A DNA stretch of 20,636 nucleotides from Rhodococcus sp. IEGM 1379 (GCF_030056815.1 NZ_JASHKR010000047.1:16233-36868); one strand, 5' to 3'; counted from the first letter of the stretch, positions 13,338 to 20,485 are shown. Numbers and translations are program-made. The notes: a model not told the origin generated them from the sequence alone.

Positions 13338-14321
13338 CTAGATGTTGGCGCCCTTAGCGAGGTTGCACGCGCGACACAGAAGTTGAAGGTTGCCCTCCGT
13401 GTTCGCGCCACCTCGCGAGAACGGAATGATGTGATCGTATTCCAGGTACTGCCCGTTTCCGCACTGTACGCAGACACCACGGTCACGTTGATAGACCGCA
13501 GCCTTGACGTGGGGCGGGATATGGCGGGTTGGTCGATCTGCGTTGCCAGGTAGCAGCATTCGGCGATCGATACGCAGTGCCGAATCGATCACGATTGACG
13601 CGTACTCCGCATCGGGCACTGTGAATCGGCCGCTCAGAGAACTTGCTGTCGCCTCGATAGTGATCGTCGATCGGTCGGAGAAGGTTGCTCGTTGAACCTT
13701 GCCGAGTGGTATCTCTGCGCCGTGTTGGTGCGCGATGAATCTGATTTTCCGGTTCGTCACTGCGAATTGTCCGTGCGAGGGGGTTGGCCCCGCTTTGAGA
13801 TCACGCCAGCGTGTCGCTTGCACAACTACGTAGCAGTATTCATCGTTGGGGAGATGCAGCCCGGGAATCTGCACTGTCGGTAGTTGGCCCTGACGTATGT
13901 CTCCCAGCATTTTATCCCGGAGCATGCGCGCTTCGAGCGGTGCCACAACGTCTGGGGAAACTTGGAGAATTCGAGCCGCCTGGCGGAACTTGTCAAGTTC
14001 GTCTGTAGTGATGAACCCGTCCATTCGAGCGAAGTCAGCGAAATTCTTGAGCCAATTGATGGCCTCTGATTTCACTGTATTCAACGCGTGCTTGCGCGGA
14101 ATCCGTTGCCCGTAAAGCCAGTTGTGGAGCTCGATCCACGCTTGGCTGAGTGGTCCGGTTCCGGCCAGGACGTTTCGTGCCGCATCTCGATACTGGGACA
14201 GCGACTGATTGACGGATGCTTTGCAGTTGTTGCAGTAGCTCTGCAATATGCGTGTCTTCGTCCCGCACATTGCACAGCCGTCGCCTGCGTTGTCGAAGCT
14301 CTTGAGCCAGCGATCGTTCAT
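13338..14321 (-). CDS. HNH endonuclease with N-terminal zinc-ribbon and a central uncharacterised domain
   Basis: 327 aa. The C-terminus is a textbook HNH motif (VYQRDRGVCVQCGNGQYLEYDHIIPFSRGGANTEGNLQLLCRACNLAKG). The N-terminus has CxxC...CxxC (GCAMCGTKTRILQSYCNNCK). The ~200-aa middle region is unrecognised. ATG start at 14319..14321. Confidence 0.8.
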   Translation of the reverse strand: MNDRWLKSFDNAGDGCAMCGTKTRILQSYCNNCKASVNQSLSQYRDAARNVLAGTGPLSQAWIELHNWLYGQRIPRKHALNTVKSEAINWLKNFADFARMDGFITTDELDKFRQAARILQVSPDVVAPLEARMLRDKMLGDIRQGQLPTVQIPGLHLPNDEYCYVVVQATRWRDLKAGPTPSHGQFAVTNRKIRFIAHQHGAEIPLGKVQRATFSDRSTITIEATASSLSGRFTVPDAEYASIVIDSALRIDRRMLLPGNADRPTRHIPPHVKAAVYQRDRGVCVQCGNGQYLEYDHIIPFSRGGANTEGNLQLLCRACNLAKGANI

Positions 14322-14557
14322 TTAGGATTGATACCAGACGGCCGGAGCATTGAATTGCCCGGAGTTTCCGGGGACAGTTTGGTGGGGGAGTGTGGTGTTT
14401 TCTCCGGGTGCGAGTATCGCCATCATGGTGGTGGCCGAATCGGTTTCGGCGTTGCCTTTCGTTCGGTGGCGGGGCGGTCTGTTGCGGATCTGCGGGTGAC
14501 GTTCGGTGTGCCGCTGACTGCCGCTCGGAACGATGTGTAGTCCGTCGAACGATGGGG

Positions 14558-15232
14558 CTAGAGCCAGCTGGCTACGCCCCCGTGACCCGAGCAGGTACCT
14601 CGACGGCTTTGGCTGAAACTGTAGGTTCCGTCGCTGCATTTCGCGGTGGCACCTGAGGGTGCTGAGGGTGCTTGCCGTGGGGAGGGGATGCAGTTGCCCG
14701 CGGTATTGATGTATCCGCCGGCGCATTCGCCCCCACCGCCTCCGGAATTTCCGCCACCGGTTGTACCTCTCGACGGCGGCTGGGGTGGCGTGTACTCCGG
14801 TGCTGCGGCGGGCGGCACGAATGGAGCAATCGCAACTTCGGTCGGTGTCATCGGGGCGAGAGTTCGGGTCGGCTCGAGTGTCGTCGTAATCGGCGGCGGT
14901 GGAGGCGTTGTCGTTGTCAGGCTGGTCGGTGTTGCGGTCGTCGTGGTGGTTATCGTTGTTCGGGCGGCAGTCGTCGAAGAGCTGGTCGGTGCGGGAGCGG
15001 TCGTCGACGTGGTGAGAATTCGGTCGGAAGTCGGGGCTGGTGTGGCGGGTGCAAGCGCGCCGCCGGTCAGCATCACACCGAACGCGATGACACTGACAAT
15101 GACAGCGGTTCGACGGTTCGGGATTCGAGCCCAACCGATGTGACCGCGTAGGAGTGCGATCACGCCGACGACAAGCGCGATCAAACCCACAAATATCAAT
15201 AACGTGGCCACGATTTCTCCCAGAGTTAGCAA
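14558..15232 (-). CDS. Membrane protein with C-terminal DUF3761 domain and a Thr/Pro-rich linker
   Basis: Two N-terminal TM helices (LLIFVGLIALVVGVIALL, AVIVSVIAFGVMLTGG), a long T/P/S-rich low-complexity linker, and a C-terminal CSDGTYSFSQSRRGTCSGHGGV motif that matches the conserved core of DUF3761. The true start is probably the GTG at about 15214, preceded by a GGGAGA ribosome-binding site. Confidence 0.65.
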   Translation of the reverse strand: MLTLGEIVATLLIFVGLIALVVGVIALLRGHIGWARIPNRRTAVIVSVIAFGVMLTGGALAPATPAPTSDRILTTSTTAPAPTSSSTTAARTTITTTTTATPTSLTTTTPPPPPITTTLEPTRTLAPMTPTEVAIAPFVPPAAAPEYTPPQPPSRGTTGGGNSGGGGGECAGGYINTAGNCIPSPRQAPSAPSGATAKCSDGTYSFSQSRRGTCSGHGGVASWL

Positions 15233-15837
15233 TTCCGAAGCAATATTTTTGAAGATTCAACCATGGCGCTTTGGGGGGAATGTGACTGACGTCCCTTTTC
15301 TGGATGAAGCTGGGACGTTCGGGCTTCGCAGCGACGCAGGGTGGGGTTGCGCACTGCGAGGGTTCGGCCACCGAAGCTGTGGTTGATCCCCTCCGTGCCG
15401 GAACCCGAAGCGTGGACGACTCTATTGAACTCGGTGACGTCGTCAGCATGTCGTGATGATTGCCGGCGATCACGGCGATTCATCTCCAATTGCGTTGCGC
15501 GACAGCAGCTTGGTTTTTAGTGTGCTCAGCGGCCGGTGAGGGGTGGAACGGTTTGGCACCATCATGTCTGCAGTCGCAAGACGAGCGCCCTCGAGGGTAT
15601 CGAGTGCGAGTTCCGCTGCTGCACCGGCGTTGTCGCCGTCCACCTCTCACCACCACTACGGGTATTCACAGAAGCAGAGGCCGCAGCTGAACTTGCATCA
15701 GGCCGGCGCTGACTGCGCCCGACGAGATACACGGGTAGGGGAGGTGACCTTGCAACTGTGCGGCACCGTCACGCCGTCCACCCTGCCCCGCAATCTCTTG
15801 CCTTGCGTGTCGGTGAATGTCGCTAGGGTAAGCACTC

Positions 15838-18760: not shown

Positions 18761-19258
18761 TTAGGAGCCGAACCCGCCGCCCGGCAGGCACACCGACCCG
18801 ATGCAGGTTTTTCCGGGAACGGTGATCGGAATTGCCTGAACCTGATTTGTTGCGAAGAGGTTCTTCCAAACATCAACTGCCACATTGGAGTTTGCAGGAG
18901 CCTCGGTCACACATGCGGAATAGAGGGTGTAGTCCCCGTCCGGGACATTGAGAAACTCGGTTCTCCACGTGGATTTGGTCCAAACGGCCAGGTAGCCGTA
19001 GGGGTACCCCACGGTGTAGTCAGGCTGATCGCTCGTGGGATTCTTACTCGCATTCTGCCCGAGAATGAAGCAGTACACGTCTGCCCCCAACGTGTTGGTG
19101 ATTGTTGGCGTCACGGTGTTACCAGAGGCCGTGGCTGTGAACGTGACTCCATCGAGGAGCGCGACGCCCGGGCCCGCCGAGGCAGGTCCTCCGGCGAATA
19201 GCGCAAGGGGCGCAGCAGCTAGGACGATTATCGCTGCACGGGCGGCGAGTCGCTTCAC
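18761..19258 (-). CDS. Secreted hypothetical protein (Sec signal peptide, 4 Cys)
   Basis: 165 aa. The N-terminus MKRLAARAAIIVLAAAPLALFAGGPASA is a canonical signal peptide with an AXA cleavage site. The mature part is beta-rich with cysteines (CFILGQ, CVTEAP, CIGSVC). There is no family assignment. Confidence 0.7.
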   Translation of the reverse strand: MKRLAARAAIIVLAAAPLALFAGGPASAGPGVALLDGVTFTATASGNTVTPTITNTLGADVYCFILGQNASKNPTSDQPDYTVGYPYGYLAVWTKSTWRTEFLNVPDGDYTLYSACVTEAPANSNVAVDVWKNLFATNQVQAIPITVPGKTCIGSVCLPGGGFGS

Positions 19259-19663
19259 AGAATCACTCTCGTTTCTTATCGATGGTGCTAGTCGGAGGAG
19301 CCGATGCCCTCCGCCGAGAAGATCATGCCAGTGTGTTTACATCGGGTCGGCGATTGGTTGCACTGTGGCGGTAGCGAGGTGAGTAAGGGTGTCATAGGCA
19401 CAGACCTTCGCGGTTCCGTTGACCGCTTCTACAGGCTGATTTCGGTGTCGGCGGTGCCCTCAGCTGGTTGATCTCGAGGGCTCGGGAGATCGGTGGCAGC
19501 GGTTCCACTACGCAGCCCACCGGCCACAGCCCGCGAACTGTGGACGATGACCTCCGGACAACCCGGTGCGGTTCACTTACGGCCCCGCCGAGCCGGAATC
19601 AGCGGCTGGTTTGGCAAGGCCACACGACATCAGGTTCGACAGGTTCCCGGATACGTGCTCGCG

Positions 19664-20485
19664 TTAGTCCTCTGGGTTGGGGTCCGCGGTTAACGACCTG
19701 ACGAATTCCTGAATGTCGGGGGGAAGTAGATCAGTGTTGTCGGCCTCGAAAGGGATGCAGGCGAACAGGTTCCATACCTCTTTGAGTGCAACGGTGTGTG
19801 GAGTCAAACCGATGTGGGGGTCAGTAGGCGGCCAGATTCTGGTTAGCCCGATTTCGGTCGCTGCAGTGTCGATTCGGGTGTTGTGGCCCGGTCCCGATGA
19901 CCAGGTCGGTGCCAGAACCATCACGACGAGGTTCCCGACGCGCAGGACTGCGGCGGCGGTGCGCGCTCCGGAAGGGGCGAAACCGGCAGGAAGGCCTTTG
20001 TGATCGAGCCGTACCCTCGGGTCGTTTTTGAGAAGCACGGCATAGGTGGTTTCAAGTGTGCCCGTTGCATCTTCGTCCACCAGCGCCGCGAACACCCGGG
20101 TTCCCTTGGGTAGACCCCCAGTCGAACCGTCGCGGAAGCGGGATTTCAGCTGCTTCCGTGCGTCCTCCACCGGCCAGACATCTCCGGCCCGTTTAACACC
20201 CAACAGCAAGGTGATCCACACGATCCAGTGTGCGAGGGCGTCGAGATCTTCTTTCGAGACAGGTGCGCCCGTCTCGATCAGGTCCAGCAAAGCCGTATTG
20301 TTGTGCAACTTGCTGGTTGCGTTGTTACAGCTCCTGCATAGTGATGTCGTGAGCGGATGATTCGCAGTCGTCGCCGGTTCGATGCCCATACGCCTTAGCA
20401 ACGCCTGCGGGATGATGTGCTCGAGAGTCGAACTCCCCGGCTCCCCGCAAATGACGCACGGCCCCAGTTTCTTATCCATCGCCAC
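19664..20485 (-). CDS. HNH-family endonuclease with a C-terminal uncharacterised ~200-aa domain
   Basis: An N-terminal CVICGEPGSSTLEHIIPQALLRR...SLCRSCNN arrangement (CxxC...EHIIP...CxxCN) indicates an HNH zinc-finger nuclease. The likely true start is the ATG at 20477..20479 (MDKKLGP...); the GTG at 20485 is the ORF-track start. The C-terminal domain is unrecognised. Confidence 0.7.
   Translation of the reverse strand: MAMDKKLGPCVICGEPGSSTLEHIIPQALLRRMGIEPATTANHPLTTSLCRSCNNATSKLHNNTALLDLIETGAPVSKEDLDALAHWIVWITLLLGVKRAGDVWPVEDARKQLKSRFRDGSTGGLPKGTRVFAALVDEDATGTLETTYAVLLKNDPRVRLDHKGLPAGFAPSGARTAAAVLRVGNLVVMVLAPTWSSGPGHNTRIDTAATEIGLTRIWPPTDPHIGLTPHTVALKEVWNLFACIPFEADNTDLLPPDIQEFVRSLTADPNPED

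What the first reader, a model, noticed from the sequence alone, without database searches (positions are those of the whole stretch)
13338..20485. Island-level signal: 3-4 predicted nucleases, two reader domains, MazG, a DUF3761 membrane protein and a secreted protein within 7 kb, separated by long lower-GC spacers
Defence genes cluster, and this density of nuclease and reader domains, recent tandem duplications and unusually long intergenic regions (236, 605, 349 and 405 bp) is typical of a variable defence island. No integrase or tRNA is visible, so its boundaries and mobility are unresolved.
Basis: inference. Interest (0 to 1): 0.55.

Follow-up and report, generated by a model that had tools for sequence, protein, structure and literature searches.

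The report
Decayed mosaic defence island in Rhodococcus
This 7-kb stretch is a strain-specific, patchwork remnant of a restriction-enzyme-rich anti-phage island that circulates on Rhodococcus megaplasmids; two of its nuclease genes are already broken, so it is an ordinary variable defence region, though it contains one interesting, undescribed gene pair.

Summary
The spacers are not lower in GC (0.59-0.62 against an island mean of 0.61). Three of the four long ones are gene debris or a native divergent intergenic region. Two of the "nucleases" are dead: ORF4 has a TAG at codon 26, and ORF5 has lost its PD-(D/E)xK core.

The window comes from the chromosome of Rhodococcus sp. IEGM 1379. Homology to eight sister chromosomes ends at base 934, at the end of ssuA. 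Everything from 935 to the window end (at least 19.7 kb) is absent from that locus in the sisters, which carry a retron-type reverse transcriptase there instead.

A 4.0-kb core (14380-18405) is 88% identical to a block found on an R. qingshengii linear megaplasmid and on R. erythropolis contigs. There it sits among McrBC, Mrr, ScoMcrA-like and TerD genes. Around this core the window holds fragments of Mrr, N-formylglutamate amidohydrolase, TerD, a DUF2971-like gene and an IS3 end.

"Variable defence island" is therefore partly supported: variable and defence-derived, but decayed, larger than stated, and without a recognised complete system.

The best lead is a conserved pair: a DCTPP1-like MazG gene next to a YTH/EVE-reader-PD-(D/E)xK nuclease gene.

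The parts
3..944 (+). ssuA-like substrate-binding protein gene; the conserved chromosomal anchor to the left of the variable segment
   Evidence: NCBIfam SsuA_fam 3e-43. Its 90% cluster has 134 members, on complete Rhodococcus chromosomes. Window 1-934 is 92.6-92.8% identical to the four sister chromosomes compared by blastn; homology stops at 934.
935..20636 (.). Strain-specific segment, at least 19.7 kb; its right boundary lies outside the window
   Evidence: Absent after ssuA in 8 sister chromosomes (gene tables; blastn of four of them). SnoaL, the 2217-aa LamG protein, the 580-aa protein, HNH1, ORF4, ORF5 and ORF7 are all singleton clusters at 90% identity.
12950..13082 (.). 30-nt inverted repeat pair (80% complementary, 73 nt apart) bordering the Mrr fragment; possibly a small repeated element
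   Evidence: An independent Logan assembly breaks between 12978 and 13047.
13081..13210 (-). Fragment of an Mrr_cat restriction endonuclease gene (43 codons)
   Evidence: 85-87% nucleotide identity to the Mrr_cat gene of L013/L021; tblastn 77% over 43 aa.
13207..13329 (+). Fragment of an N-formylglutamate amidohydrolase gene. On Rhodococcus megaplasmids this gene follows the ParA partition locus.
   Evidence: 74-78% nucleotide identity to six plasmids; tblastn 60-63% over 35 aa; plasmid context.
13338..14321 (-). HNH1: an intact 327-aa protein with a Zn-ribbon, a middle domain and a C-terminal HNH nuclease
   Evidence: Pfam HNH 2.6e-12. The only relatives among species-representative genomes are 28-43% identical over the matched stretches, and the two longest are TerD-HNH fusions.
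14322..14423 (-). 33-codon 5' remnant of a TerD gene, ending in a stop codon in frame with and directly abutting the HNH1 ATG
   Evidence: The window's 'MAILAPGENTTLPHQ' matches the plasmid TerD 'MATLARGENTTLPHQ'; tblastn.
14380..18405 (.). 4.0-kb block shared with the Rhodococcus defence islands: TerD remnant, DUF3761, MazG-like, ORF4 and ORF5
   Evidence: 88.5% identity to L021 7935-11909. The same left breakpoint is seen with L006 and L013.
14558..15232 (-). DUF3761 protein with an N-terminal membrane helix and a Thr/Pro-rich linker
   Evidence: Pfam DUF3761 1.1e-20. Variation among relatives shows codon periodicity, 0.076/0.049/0.213.
15233..15837 (.). Native non-coding divergent intergenic region between DUF3761 and MazG-like
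   Evidence: Present in all relatives. Variation shows no codon periodicity, 0.238/0.218/0.194.
15838..16485 (+). MazG-like (DCTPP1-like) nucleotide pyrophosphohydrolase carrying a strain-specific 12-aa in-frame duplication (16352-16430)
   Evidence: PDB 6sqw E 1e-16, with the aligned E-x-x-E and E-x-x-D motifs. Pfam MazG-like reaches only 18.6 bits, below the cutoff. The duplication is absent in four relatives, and the other cluster members are 203 aa.
16482..17576 (+). ORF4 pseudogene: YTH/EVE-like reader fused to a PD-(D/E)xK nuclease. ATG at 16482 overlaps the MazG stop; TAG at 16557-16559; linker repeat at 16998-17046.
17734..18411 (+). ORF5: a paralogous reader domain whose nuclease core has been deleted (225 aa against 315-333 aa)
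   Evidence: Homology to L021 ends at 18405.
18574..18642 (.). Fragment of the left end of an IS3-family element
   Evidence: 93.9% identity to an R. qingshengii plasmid and 84.7% to the start of a Gordonia IS3 element.
18645..18785 (-). Fragment (about 47 codons) of a roughly 320-aa DUF2971-like gene, annotated 'putative T/A toxin' on Prescottella plasmids
   Evidence: tblastn 65-74%; context; weak Pfam DUF2971 hit on the intact plasmid homologue of the gene.
18761..19258 (-). 165-aa protein with a signal peptide; function unknown
   Evidence: ORF. No hit in Pfam, PADLOC, NCBIfam or PHROGs. Its cluster has 2 members.
19664..20485 (-). ORF7: a rare protein with an N-terminal HNH (ββα-Me) motif and a C-terminal domain of about 200 aa and unknown fold

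Best explanation
The finding's 7 kb is the right-hand part of a strain-specific segment of at least 19.7 kb. This segment sits directly after the core gene ssuA in the chromosome of Rhodococcus sp. IEGM 1379.

The 7 kb is a decayed, mosaic copy of a defence island rich in type IV restriction genes. That island circulates among R. erythropolis/qingshengii strains on large linear plasmids and accessory contigs.

Its 4.0-kb core is: TerD remnant, DUF3761, a 605-bp divergent intergenic region, a MazG-like gene, a reader-nuclease (ORF4) and a second reader (ORF5). The core was retained, while recombination and IS activity replaced both flanks. On the left, an HNH gene of a TerD-linked family was joined at codon 34 of the resident TerD gene, next to fragments of Mrr and N-formylglutamate amidohydrolase. 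On the right, ORF5 was cut inside its nuclease domain and joined to an IS3-end fragment, a DUF2971-like gene fragment, a secreted protein and a rare HNH-like gene.

Point decay followed: a CAG-to-TAG change at codon 26 of ORF4, and repeat expansions in the MazG-like gene and in the ORF4 linker.

SHOWN: strain specificity, the breakpoints, the gene fragments, the inactivating lesions and the domain identities.
INFERRED: that the richer island form is ancestral, that the genes act in anti-phage defence, and that HNH1, ORF7 and the MazG-like gene still function.
For: SOURCE AND LOCATION
- Window proteins are identical to IEGM 1379 proteins on a 36.9-kb contig.
- The ssuA product clusters with proteins encoded on complete chromosomes.
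- Homology to the sister chromosomes compared ends at 934, and all 8 sisters carry different genes after ssuA.
- The island genes are singletons at 90% identity.

SHARED CORE
- 14380-17652 is 88% identical to the R. qingshengii CS98 linear plasmid, where it lies next to two TerD genes, two HNH genes, AbiGi, a restriction endonuclease, transposases and ParA.
- 14380-18405 is 88.5% identical to L021, which carries McrBC, a reader-HNH gene, Mrr_cat, ScoMcrA_N-HNH_2, two TerD genes, DUF3761, MazG, ORF4, ORF5, DUF4365 and AspBHI_N-SBD.

DEBRIS AND LESIONS
- Gene fragments.
- Inactivating lesions.

GENE REALITY AND DOMAINS
- The relatives' genes show third-position-biased variation, while the 605-bp spacer does not.
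- Domain identities.

MOBILE-ELEMENT CHECKS
- Not a prophage or ICE: no match in the phage collection, no phage structural families in PHROGs, no tRNA.
Against: - No gene here has been tested for defence, and PADLOC finds no known system, even for intact relatives.
- The direction of change (decay from a rich island, rather than independent assembly) rests on a handful of relatives.
- The right boundary lies outside the window.
- The TAG could be a sequencing error. The two assemblies that agree may derive from the same reads, and a restart at GTG 16629 or ATG 16686 might give a partly active protein.
- The left 11 kb of the strain-specific segment carries no defence genes, so the region is a general accessory locus rather than a dedicated defence island.
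- GC and GC3 are close to native, so composition does not argue for recent transfer.
Confidence: 0.72

Rival explanations
1. An active defence island. Three or four working nucleases with two modified-base readers would jointly restrict phage DNA, and the long spacers would be regulatory regions typical of recently acquired cassettes.
For: - HNH1 and ORF7 are intact and have conserved catalytic motifs.
- The MazG-like gene keeps its metal-binding motifs.
- Relatives lie in defence-rich loci.
- A restart codon exists downstream of the ORF4 stop.
Against: - ORF4 has a premature TAG at codon 26. A restart would remove strand 1 and three helices of the reader domain, including the invariant residues F30 and L47.
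- ORF5 lacks the whole catalytic core.
- Three of the four spacers hold gene debris or are a native intergenic region.
- There is no PADLOC system.
Confidence: 0.13
2. Not an immune locus, but the remnant of a Ter-type stress-response and nucleotide-housekeeping cluster: TerD, DUF3761, a MazG house-cleaning enzyme and associated nucleases acting on damaged or non-canonical nucleotides and on DNA.
For: - In Rhodococcus the core block always sits beside TerD genes.
- Distant HNH1 relatives are TerD-HNH fusions located next to vWA-TerF-like genes.
- DCTPP1-type enzymes are nucleotide-pool sanitisers (established knowledge; match).
Against: - In Kribbella, and in many metagenome loci, the MazG-reader-nuclease pair occurs without TerD.
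- The reader domain is closest to the modified-DNA readers of restriction enzymes.
- The Ter system is itself linked to phage and plasmid conflict (PMC7824862).
- The locus is strain-variable.
Confidence: 0.1
3. A functionless scar: a fragment of a linear megaplasmid that recombined into the chromosome and is being eroded, with none of its genes under selection in this strain.
For: - Colinearity with the region after the par locus of Rhodococcus plasmids: an N-formylglutamate amidohydrolase fragment, then the DUF3761-MazG region.
- Five gene fragments, two inactivated genes and strain-specific repeat expansions.
Against: - HNH1, DUF3761, the MazG-like gene, the secreted protein and ORF7 keep full-length open frames.
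- This reading overlaps the best explanation and differs only in denying residual function, which sequence alone cannot settle.
Confidence: 0.05

Closest known systems
Defence islands (clusters of anti-phage genes in variable genome regions), specifically the McrBC/Mrr/ScoMcrA-type type IV restriction cluster seen in R. erythropolis/qingshengii (loci L013, L021 and CS98 plasmid RQCS_2)
   Same: - Shares a 4.0-kb block at 88% identity, plus an Mrr fragment.
- Strain-variable, with mosaic breakpoints and an IS remnant.
- Enriched in nuclease and reader domains.
   Different: - The window copy lacks McrBC, intact Mrr, the ScoMcrA-like gene and the TerD genes.
- Two reader-nuclease genes are inactivated.
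- It sits in the chromosome after ssuA, together with about 11 kb of non-defence cargo.
- No complete known system is detected.
PUA-superfamily modification-dependent restriction endonucleases (EVE/YTH/SRA reader fused to HNH or PD-(D/E)XK; e.g. VcaM4I, TspA15I, YenY4I; PMC6765204, PMC7897488) and the YTH-like N-domain of T. gammatolerans McrB (6p0g)
   Same: - They have a C-terminal nuclease with invariant D...ExK.
- No methyltransferase gene was identified in the window or in the Rhodococcus and Kribbella contexts examined.
- In a neighbouring Rhodococcus gene the same reader is fused to HNH instead.
   Different: - No sequence-level match to any Pfam, PADLOC or PDB family.
- A direct reader-PD-(D/E)xK fusion was reported as rare (PMC6765204).
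- The gene is often operonic with a MazG-like gene.
- The window copy is a pseudogene.
DCTPP1 / RS21-C6 all-alpha NTP pyrophosphohydrolases (MazG superfamily)
   Same: - E 1e-16 to PDB 6sqw.
- The E-x-x-E and E-x-x-D motifs and the C-terminal 'RYPV...SRGS..KYT' segment align.
   Different: - The Rhodococcus version is 203-215 aa, with an inserted second, degenerate MazG-like repeat.
- It scores below the Pfam gathering threshold.
- It is encoded with a 4-bp overlap to a reader-nuclease gene.
- Its substrate is unknown.
PUA-Cal-HAD and related PUA-sensor immune modules, including rare MazG-for-calcineurin replacements (bioRxiv 10.64898/2026.01.15.699771)
   Same: A PUA-like modified-base sensor is genetically coupled to a nucleotide-triphosphate-targeting enzyme of the MazG type.
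   Different: - Here there is no HAD and no calcineurin-CE component.
- The sensor is fused to a PD-(D/E)xK DNase.
- Membership was not tested at the sequence level.
Ter (tellurite-resistance/TerD) conflict systems
   Same: - TerD genes flank the core block in Rhodococcus relatives.
- The HNH1 family includes TerD-HNH fusions located next to vWA-TerF genes.
   Different: Only a 33-codon TerD remnant survives in the window, and no TerB, TerC, TerF or biosynthetic genes are present.

Membership tests
Defence island | Local clustering of several defence-type genes beyond chance | tested here: met
   4 of 7 ORFs carry nuclease or reader domains. The shared core lies among McrBC, Mrr, ScoMcrA-like and AbiGi genes in relatives.
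Defence island | Variable presence between closely related strains at a fixed chromosomal position | tested here: met
   8 sister chromosomes carry a retron-type RT and core genes after ssuA instead. The island proteins are singletons at 90% identity.
Defence island | Contains at least one complete, recognised defence system | tested here: not met
   PADLOC gives only generic HNH hits for HNH1 and nothing for the rest, including intact relatives.
Defence island | Association with mobility genes (integrase, transposase, tRNA site) | tested here: inconclusive
   No tRNA and no intact mobility gene. Only a 69-bp IS3-end fragment and plasmid-backbone fragments. The right boundary is outside the window.
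PUA-superfamily modification-dependent restriction endonuclease | Reader domain with a PUA/EVE/YTH fold | tested here: met
   [not shown]
PUA-superfamily modification-dependent restriction endonuclease | Fused nuclease domain with intact catalytic residues | tested here: met
   [not shown]
PUA-superfamily modification-dependent restriction endonuclease | Intact open reading frame in this window | tested here: not met
   ORF4 has a TAG at codon 26. ORF5 lacks its nuclease core.
PUA-superfamily modification-dependent restriction endonuclease | Cleavage dependent on a DNA modification | not testable with these tools
   Needs enzyme assays on modified and unmodified DNA.
MazG / DCTPP1 all-alpha NTP pyrophosphohydrolase | Significant sequence similarity including the acidic metal-binding motifs | tested here: met
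   phmmer E 1e-16 to 6sqw and 2a3q. The EVGE and EVAD motifs align with DCTPP1's EVGE and EELSD.
MazG / DCTPP1 all-alpha NTP pyrophosphohydrolase | Pfam MazG-like (PF12643) gathering score | tested here: not met
   18.6 bits against a cutoff of 27. The Kribbella partner gene does carry a PF12643 hit.
HNH endonuclease (ORF7) | ββα-Me motif with conserved His, Asn and His and Cys pairs | tested here: met
   [not shown]
Ter system | TerD-domain protein encoded in the locus | tested here: not met
   Only a 33-codon remnant at 14322-14423.
Prophage or integrative element | Integrase, tRNA attachment site, phage structural or conjugation genes | tested here: not met
   No tRNA, no match in the phage collection, and no structural families in PHROGs.

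The most novel reading that the evidence does not exclude
The MazG-like (DCTPP1-like) gene and the YTH/EVE-reader-PD-(D/E)xK gene form an undescribed two-gene, type IV-like defence module of Actinomycetes.

The pyrophosphohydrolase destroys the matching modified dNTP. This would either starve the phage of its precursor or stop salvaged modified nucleotides from entering host DNA and turning the nuclease on the host.

Support:
- The two genes overlap by 4 bp in Rhodococcus.
- They are adjacent in Kribbella.
- They are adjacent in 11 of 22 full-length metagenome loci (about 11 of 17 with enough flank), in three different gene orders.
- Neither gene matches PADLOC.
- The literature searches found no paper describing the pairing.

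The window itself holds only a broken copy.
Probability: 0.4. Interest if true: 0.6.

Novelty: new member of a known kind. Interest (0 to 1): 0.36.

Why it matters
At island level this is a routine result: one more variable, plasmid-fed defence locus. It is useful mainly as a worked example of how such islands erode, through gene fragments at junctions, a nonsense codon and a domain deletion. It also shows that "long spacers" can be debris rather than regulatory sequence.

Two things reach further.

First, the ssuA-downstream site carries a retron-type reverse transcriptase in sister strains and this mosaic here. That marks a chromosomal site with alternative accessory cargo in the R. erythropolis group.

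Second, there is a recurrent pairing of a DCTPP1-like pyrophosphohydrolase with a modified-base-reader nuclease. If functional, it would link restriction of modified DNA to control of the modified-nucleotide pool. That idea is directly testable with the intact copy on plasmid RQCS_2.

Tried and rejected
- PROPHAGE OR PHAGE ORIGIN. No megablast match to 50,697 phage records. PHROGs gave only generic HNH or pyrophosphatase hits and one family of unknown function. Only 2 relatives of the ORF4 family were found in IMG/VR. Rejected.
- tRNA- OR INTEGRASE-BOUNDED ELEMENT. No tRNA and no Rfam hit. Rejected for the part in the window.
- COMPOSITIONAL ISLAND OR LOWER-GC SPACERS. Not seen.
- HIDDEN SMALL GENES IN THE 605-bp SPACER. 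Variation among five relatives shows no codon periodicity. Rejected.
- THE 383-aa ORF AT 14322-15473, called as a gene in a Logan assembly. It overlaps the Pfam-supported DUF3761 frame and is an open high-GC frame that also exists upstream of TerD in the plasmid. Treated as spurious.
- WHOLE WINDOW ON A PLASMID. Only 14380-17652 and short fragments match Rhodococcus plasmids, and ssuA ties the contig to the chromosome. Rejected.
- UNIVERSAL MazG PARTNERSHIP. The 122-aa gene upstream of the Streptomyces TLI_235 homologue is not MazG-like, and 6 well-flanked metagenome loci lack MazG. The pairing is therefore frequent but facultative.
- PROMOTER AND TERMINATOR SCAN. At or below chance level.
- LOOK-UPS THAT FAILED. 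Exact-protein look-ups for the 315-aa ORF4 form, for the MazG-like protein (given with a Val start) and for the NCBI ORF7 form found nothing.

Full report
1. WHAT IS IN THE SEQUENCE

The window is high-GC (0.62) Rhodococcus DNA. Its proteins are identical to those of Rhodococcus sp. IEGM 1379 on a 36.9-kb contig.

- HNH1, 13338-14321(-): Pfam HNH 2.6e-12 at residues 284-325.
- DUF3761 protein, 14558-15232(-): 1.1e-20.
- MazG-like gene, 15838-16485(+). It is below the Pfam cutoff (18.6 against 27 bits), but it matches dCTP pyrophosphatase 1 structures (6sqw, 2a3q) at E 1e-16, with the E-x-x-E and E-x-x-D motifs aligned.
- Two ORFs with no family hit, 16629-17576 and 17677-18411.
- A signal-peptide protein, 18761-19258(-).
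- ORF7, 19664-20485(-), with weak HNH hits.

The spacer lengths of 236, 605, 349 and 405 bp are exact. The tandem duplications are real: 36 bp x2.2 at 100% identity inside the MazG-like gene, and a 15-bp unit x3.3 in ORF4. There is no tRNA and no Rfam family.

The spacers are not lower in GC. They run 0.594-0.619 against genes at 0.569-0.662. The island is 0.609 and the rest of the window 0.626.

ORF4 is a pseudogene. Full-length relatives are about 360 aa, and their ATG overlaps the MazG stop (ATGA). In the window that frame starts at 16482 and hits a TAG at 16557-16559. Four relatives have CAG there. The listed ORF from GTG 16629, and NCBI's 296-aa call from ATG 16686, are only what is left downstream of the stop.

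ORF5 really starts at 17734 (225 aa). It ends at "HERIVATYGTAAC". Its intact relatives (315-333 aa) continue into the catalytic core "HPRDLTL...WLVEVKV". Homology to the related island stops at 18405, exactly at this truncation.

3. WHAT THE PROTEINS ARE

This is the architecture of a modification-dependent (type IV) restriction enzyme (PMC6765204, PMC7897488). A neighbouring Rhodococcus gene fuses the same reader to an HNH domain, and longer Streptomyces relatives add a ScoMcrA-type head domain.

4. WHERE IT SITS AND HOW VARIABLE IT IS

The ssuA product at 3-944 is in a 90% cluster of 134 members, seen on hundreds of contigs that include complete R. qingshengii and R. erythropolis chromosomes. 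By contrast, SnoaL, the 2217-aa LamG/PQQ protein, the 580-aa protein, HNH1, ORF4, ORF5 and ORF7 are all singletons. The flotillin cluster has 11 members and the MazG-like cluster 6.

In eight sister chromosomes ssuA is followed by a 416-aa reverse transcriptase, then L-PSP, a hydrolase, IclR and ABC transporter genes. Nucleotide homology to the window (92.6-92.8%, four sisters compared) ends at base 934. That reverse transcriptase is retron-type (PADLOC RT_other 2.8e-176).

So the variable segment runs from 935 to beyond the window end, at least 19.7 kb. The same chromosomal site holds a different defence-type gene in the sister strains.

5. MOSAIC STRUCTURE AND THE ORIGIN OF THE SPACERS

Window 14380-17652 is 88% identical to the linear plasmid RQCS_2 of R. 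qingshengii CS98. There the block lies beside two TerD genes, two HNH genes, AbiGi, a restriction endonuclease, transposases and ParA.

Window 14380-18405 is 88.5% identical to an ENA contig, L021. Its island reads: McrBC, reader-HNH, Rv1352, Mrr_cat, ScoMcrA_N-HNH_2, two TerD genes, DUF3761, MazG, ORF4, ORF5 (itself in three pieces), DUF4365, AspBHI_N-SBD and CHAT. R. erythropolis GCA_030057135 has the same arrangement.

Outside this core the window holds fragments:
- Mrr_cat, 13081-13210.
- N-formylglutamate amidohydrolase, 13207-13329. On Rhodococcus megaplasmids this gene follows ParA.
- A 33-codon TerD start, 14322-14423, ending in a stop that abuts the HNH1 ATG in frame.
- An IS3 left end, 18574-18642.
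- A DUF2971-like gene piece, 18645-18785.

The four spacers are explained as follows:
- 236 bp: the TerD remnant plus the native 134-bp intergenic region.
- 605 bp: the native divergent intergenic region. Variation among five relatives shows no codon periodicity (0.238/0.218/0.194), while the flanking genes do (for example ORF4 at 0.186/0.115/0.43).
- 349 bp: a recombination junction holding the IS and gene debris.
- 405 bp: unexplained.

ORF7 is 69% identical to a gene on R. ruber and R. pyridinivorans plasmids. On the R. ruber plasmid it lies two small genes away from an IS630 transposase and a restriction endonuclease.

6. INTERPRETATION

The best reading is a decayed mosaic derived from a plasmid-borne island rich in type IV restriction genes, now lodged in a chromosomal accessory locus. 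This supports "variable" and "defence-related". It does not support an intact multi-nuclease arsenal.

PADLOC recognises no system here or in the intact relatives. No prophage features are present.

The rivals are weighed in the Rival explanations section: a fully active island, a Ter-type housekeeping cluster, and a pure scar.

7. THE MOST NOVEL LEAD

- a 4-bp overlap in the R. erythropolis-group loci and in R. opacus;
- adjacency in Kribbella, where the locus also holds GmrSD_N, FRG and SLFN genes;
- adjacency in 11 of 22 full-length metagenome loci, in three gene orders: upstream, downstream and divergent.

The pairing is not universal. Streptomyces TLI_235 and six well-flanked metagenome loci lack it.

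DCTPP1-type enzymes prefer modified dCTPs; this rests on established knowledge and was not tested here. The proposed coupling, nuclease on modified DNA plus hydrolase on the modified dNTP, is therefore inference.

Precedents exist for related pairings:
- MutT homologues next to SauUSI-type enzymes (PMC7641849).
- Rare PUA-MazG-HAD modules (bioRxiv 10.64898/2026.01.15.699771).
- MazG listed as a predicted but unvalidated defence domain (PMC13092281).

No paper found pairs MazG with a YTH/EVE restriction enzyme.

8. VERDICT

At island level this is a new member of a known kind and of modest interest. The conserved gene pair is worth a bench test, using the intact plasmid copy rather than this broken one.

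Noticed in passing
L024-L031, locus coordinates 11183-12433 (sister chromosomes, directly after ssuA): All eight sister R. qingshengii/erythropolis chromosomes carry a 416-aa retron-type reverse transcriptase (PADLOC RT_other 2.8e-176) at the position where this strain has its 19.7-kb insert. No Rfam ncRNA was found beside it. The ssuA 3' flank may be a site for alternative defence cargo.
   Followed up: partly
window 13338-14423; L002 174-1760; L003 9095-10612: The only relatives of HNH1 among 185,579 species genomes are 28-43% identical over the matched stretches, and the two longest are TerD-middle-HNH fusion proteins; the L002 one lies next to a vWA-TerF-like gene. In the window, HNH1 starts immediately after an in-frame stop that ends a 33-codon TerD remnant. 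This suggests recombination within, or a deletion of, a TerD-HNH arrangement.
   Followed up: partly
window 3737-12175: A 2217-aa secreted-type protein with PQQ beta-propeller and two LamG domains, and an adjacent 580-aa protein with no family hit. Both are singletons at 90% identity among about 15 billion proteins, and neither matches any plasmid.
   Followed up: no
window 3212-3588: A 124-aa YncE/lactonase-type beta-propeller remnant made of 129-bp tandem repeats (2.8 copies, 86% matches). It is 75-79% identical to genes lying 1.4-2.2 kb from the end of the R. erythropolis R138 plasmid record.
   Followed up: no
window 12950-13082: A 30-nt inverted repeat pair with a 73-nt spacer, at the left edge of the Mrr fragment. 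The independent Logan assembly breaks here (12978 to 13047), as it does at other repeats. It may be a small repeated or mobile element.
   Followed up: no
[not shown]
   Followed up: partly
window 15838-16485; L019 7629-7997: The Rhodococcus MazG-like proteins (203-215 aa) contain an inserted second, degenerate MazG-like repeat between the DCTPP1-like N- and C-terminal segments. The Kribbella partner is a single 122-aa domain.
   Followed up: no
   Followed up: no
L021 11240-12248: The ORF5 homologue is also broken in the related island, into three gene calls of 79, 97 and 160 aa. This paralogue is therefore decaying independently in more than one strain, while ORF4 is intact there.
   Followed up: no
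window 19259-19663: The 405-bp spacer between the secreted-protein gene and ORF7 has no match to any plasmid, phage or related locus examined, and no Rfam hit. It remains unexplained.
   Followed up: partly
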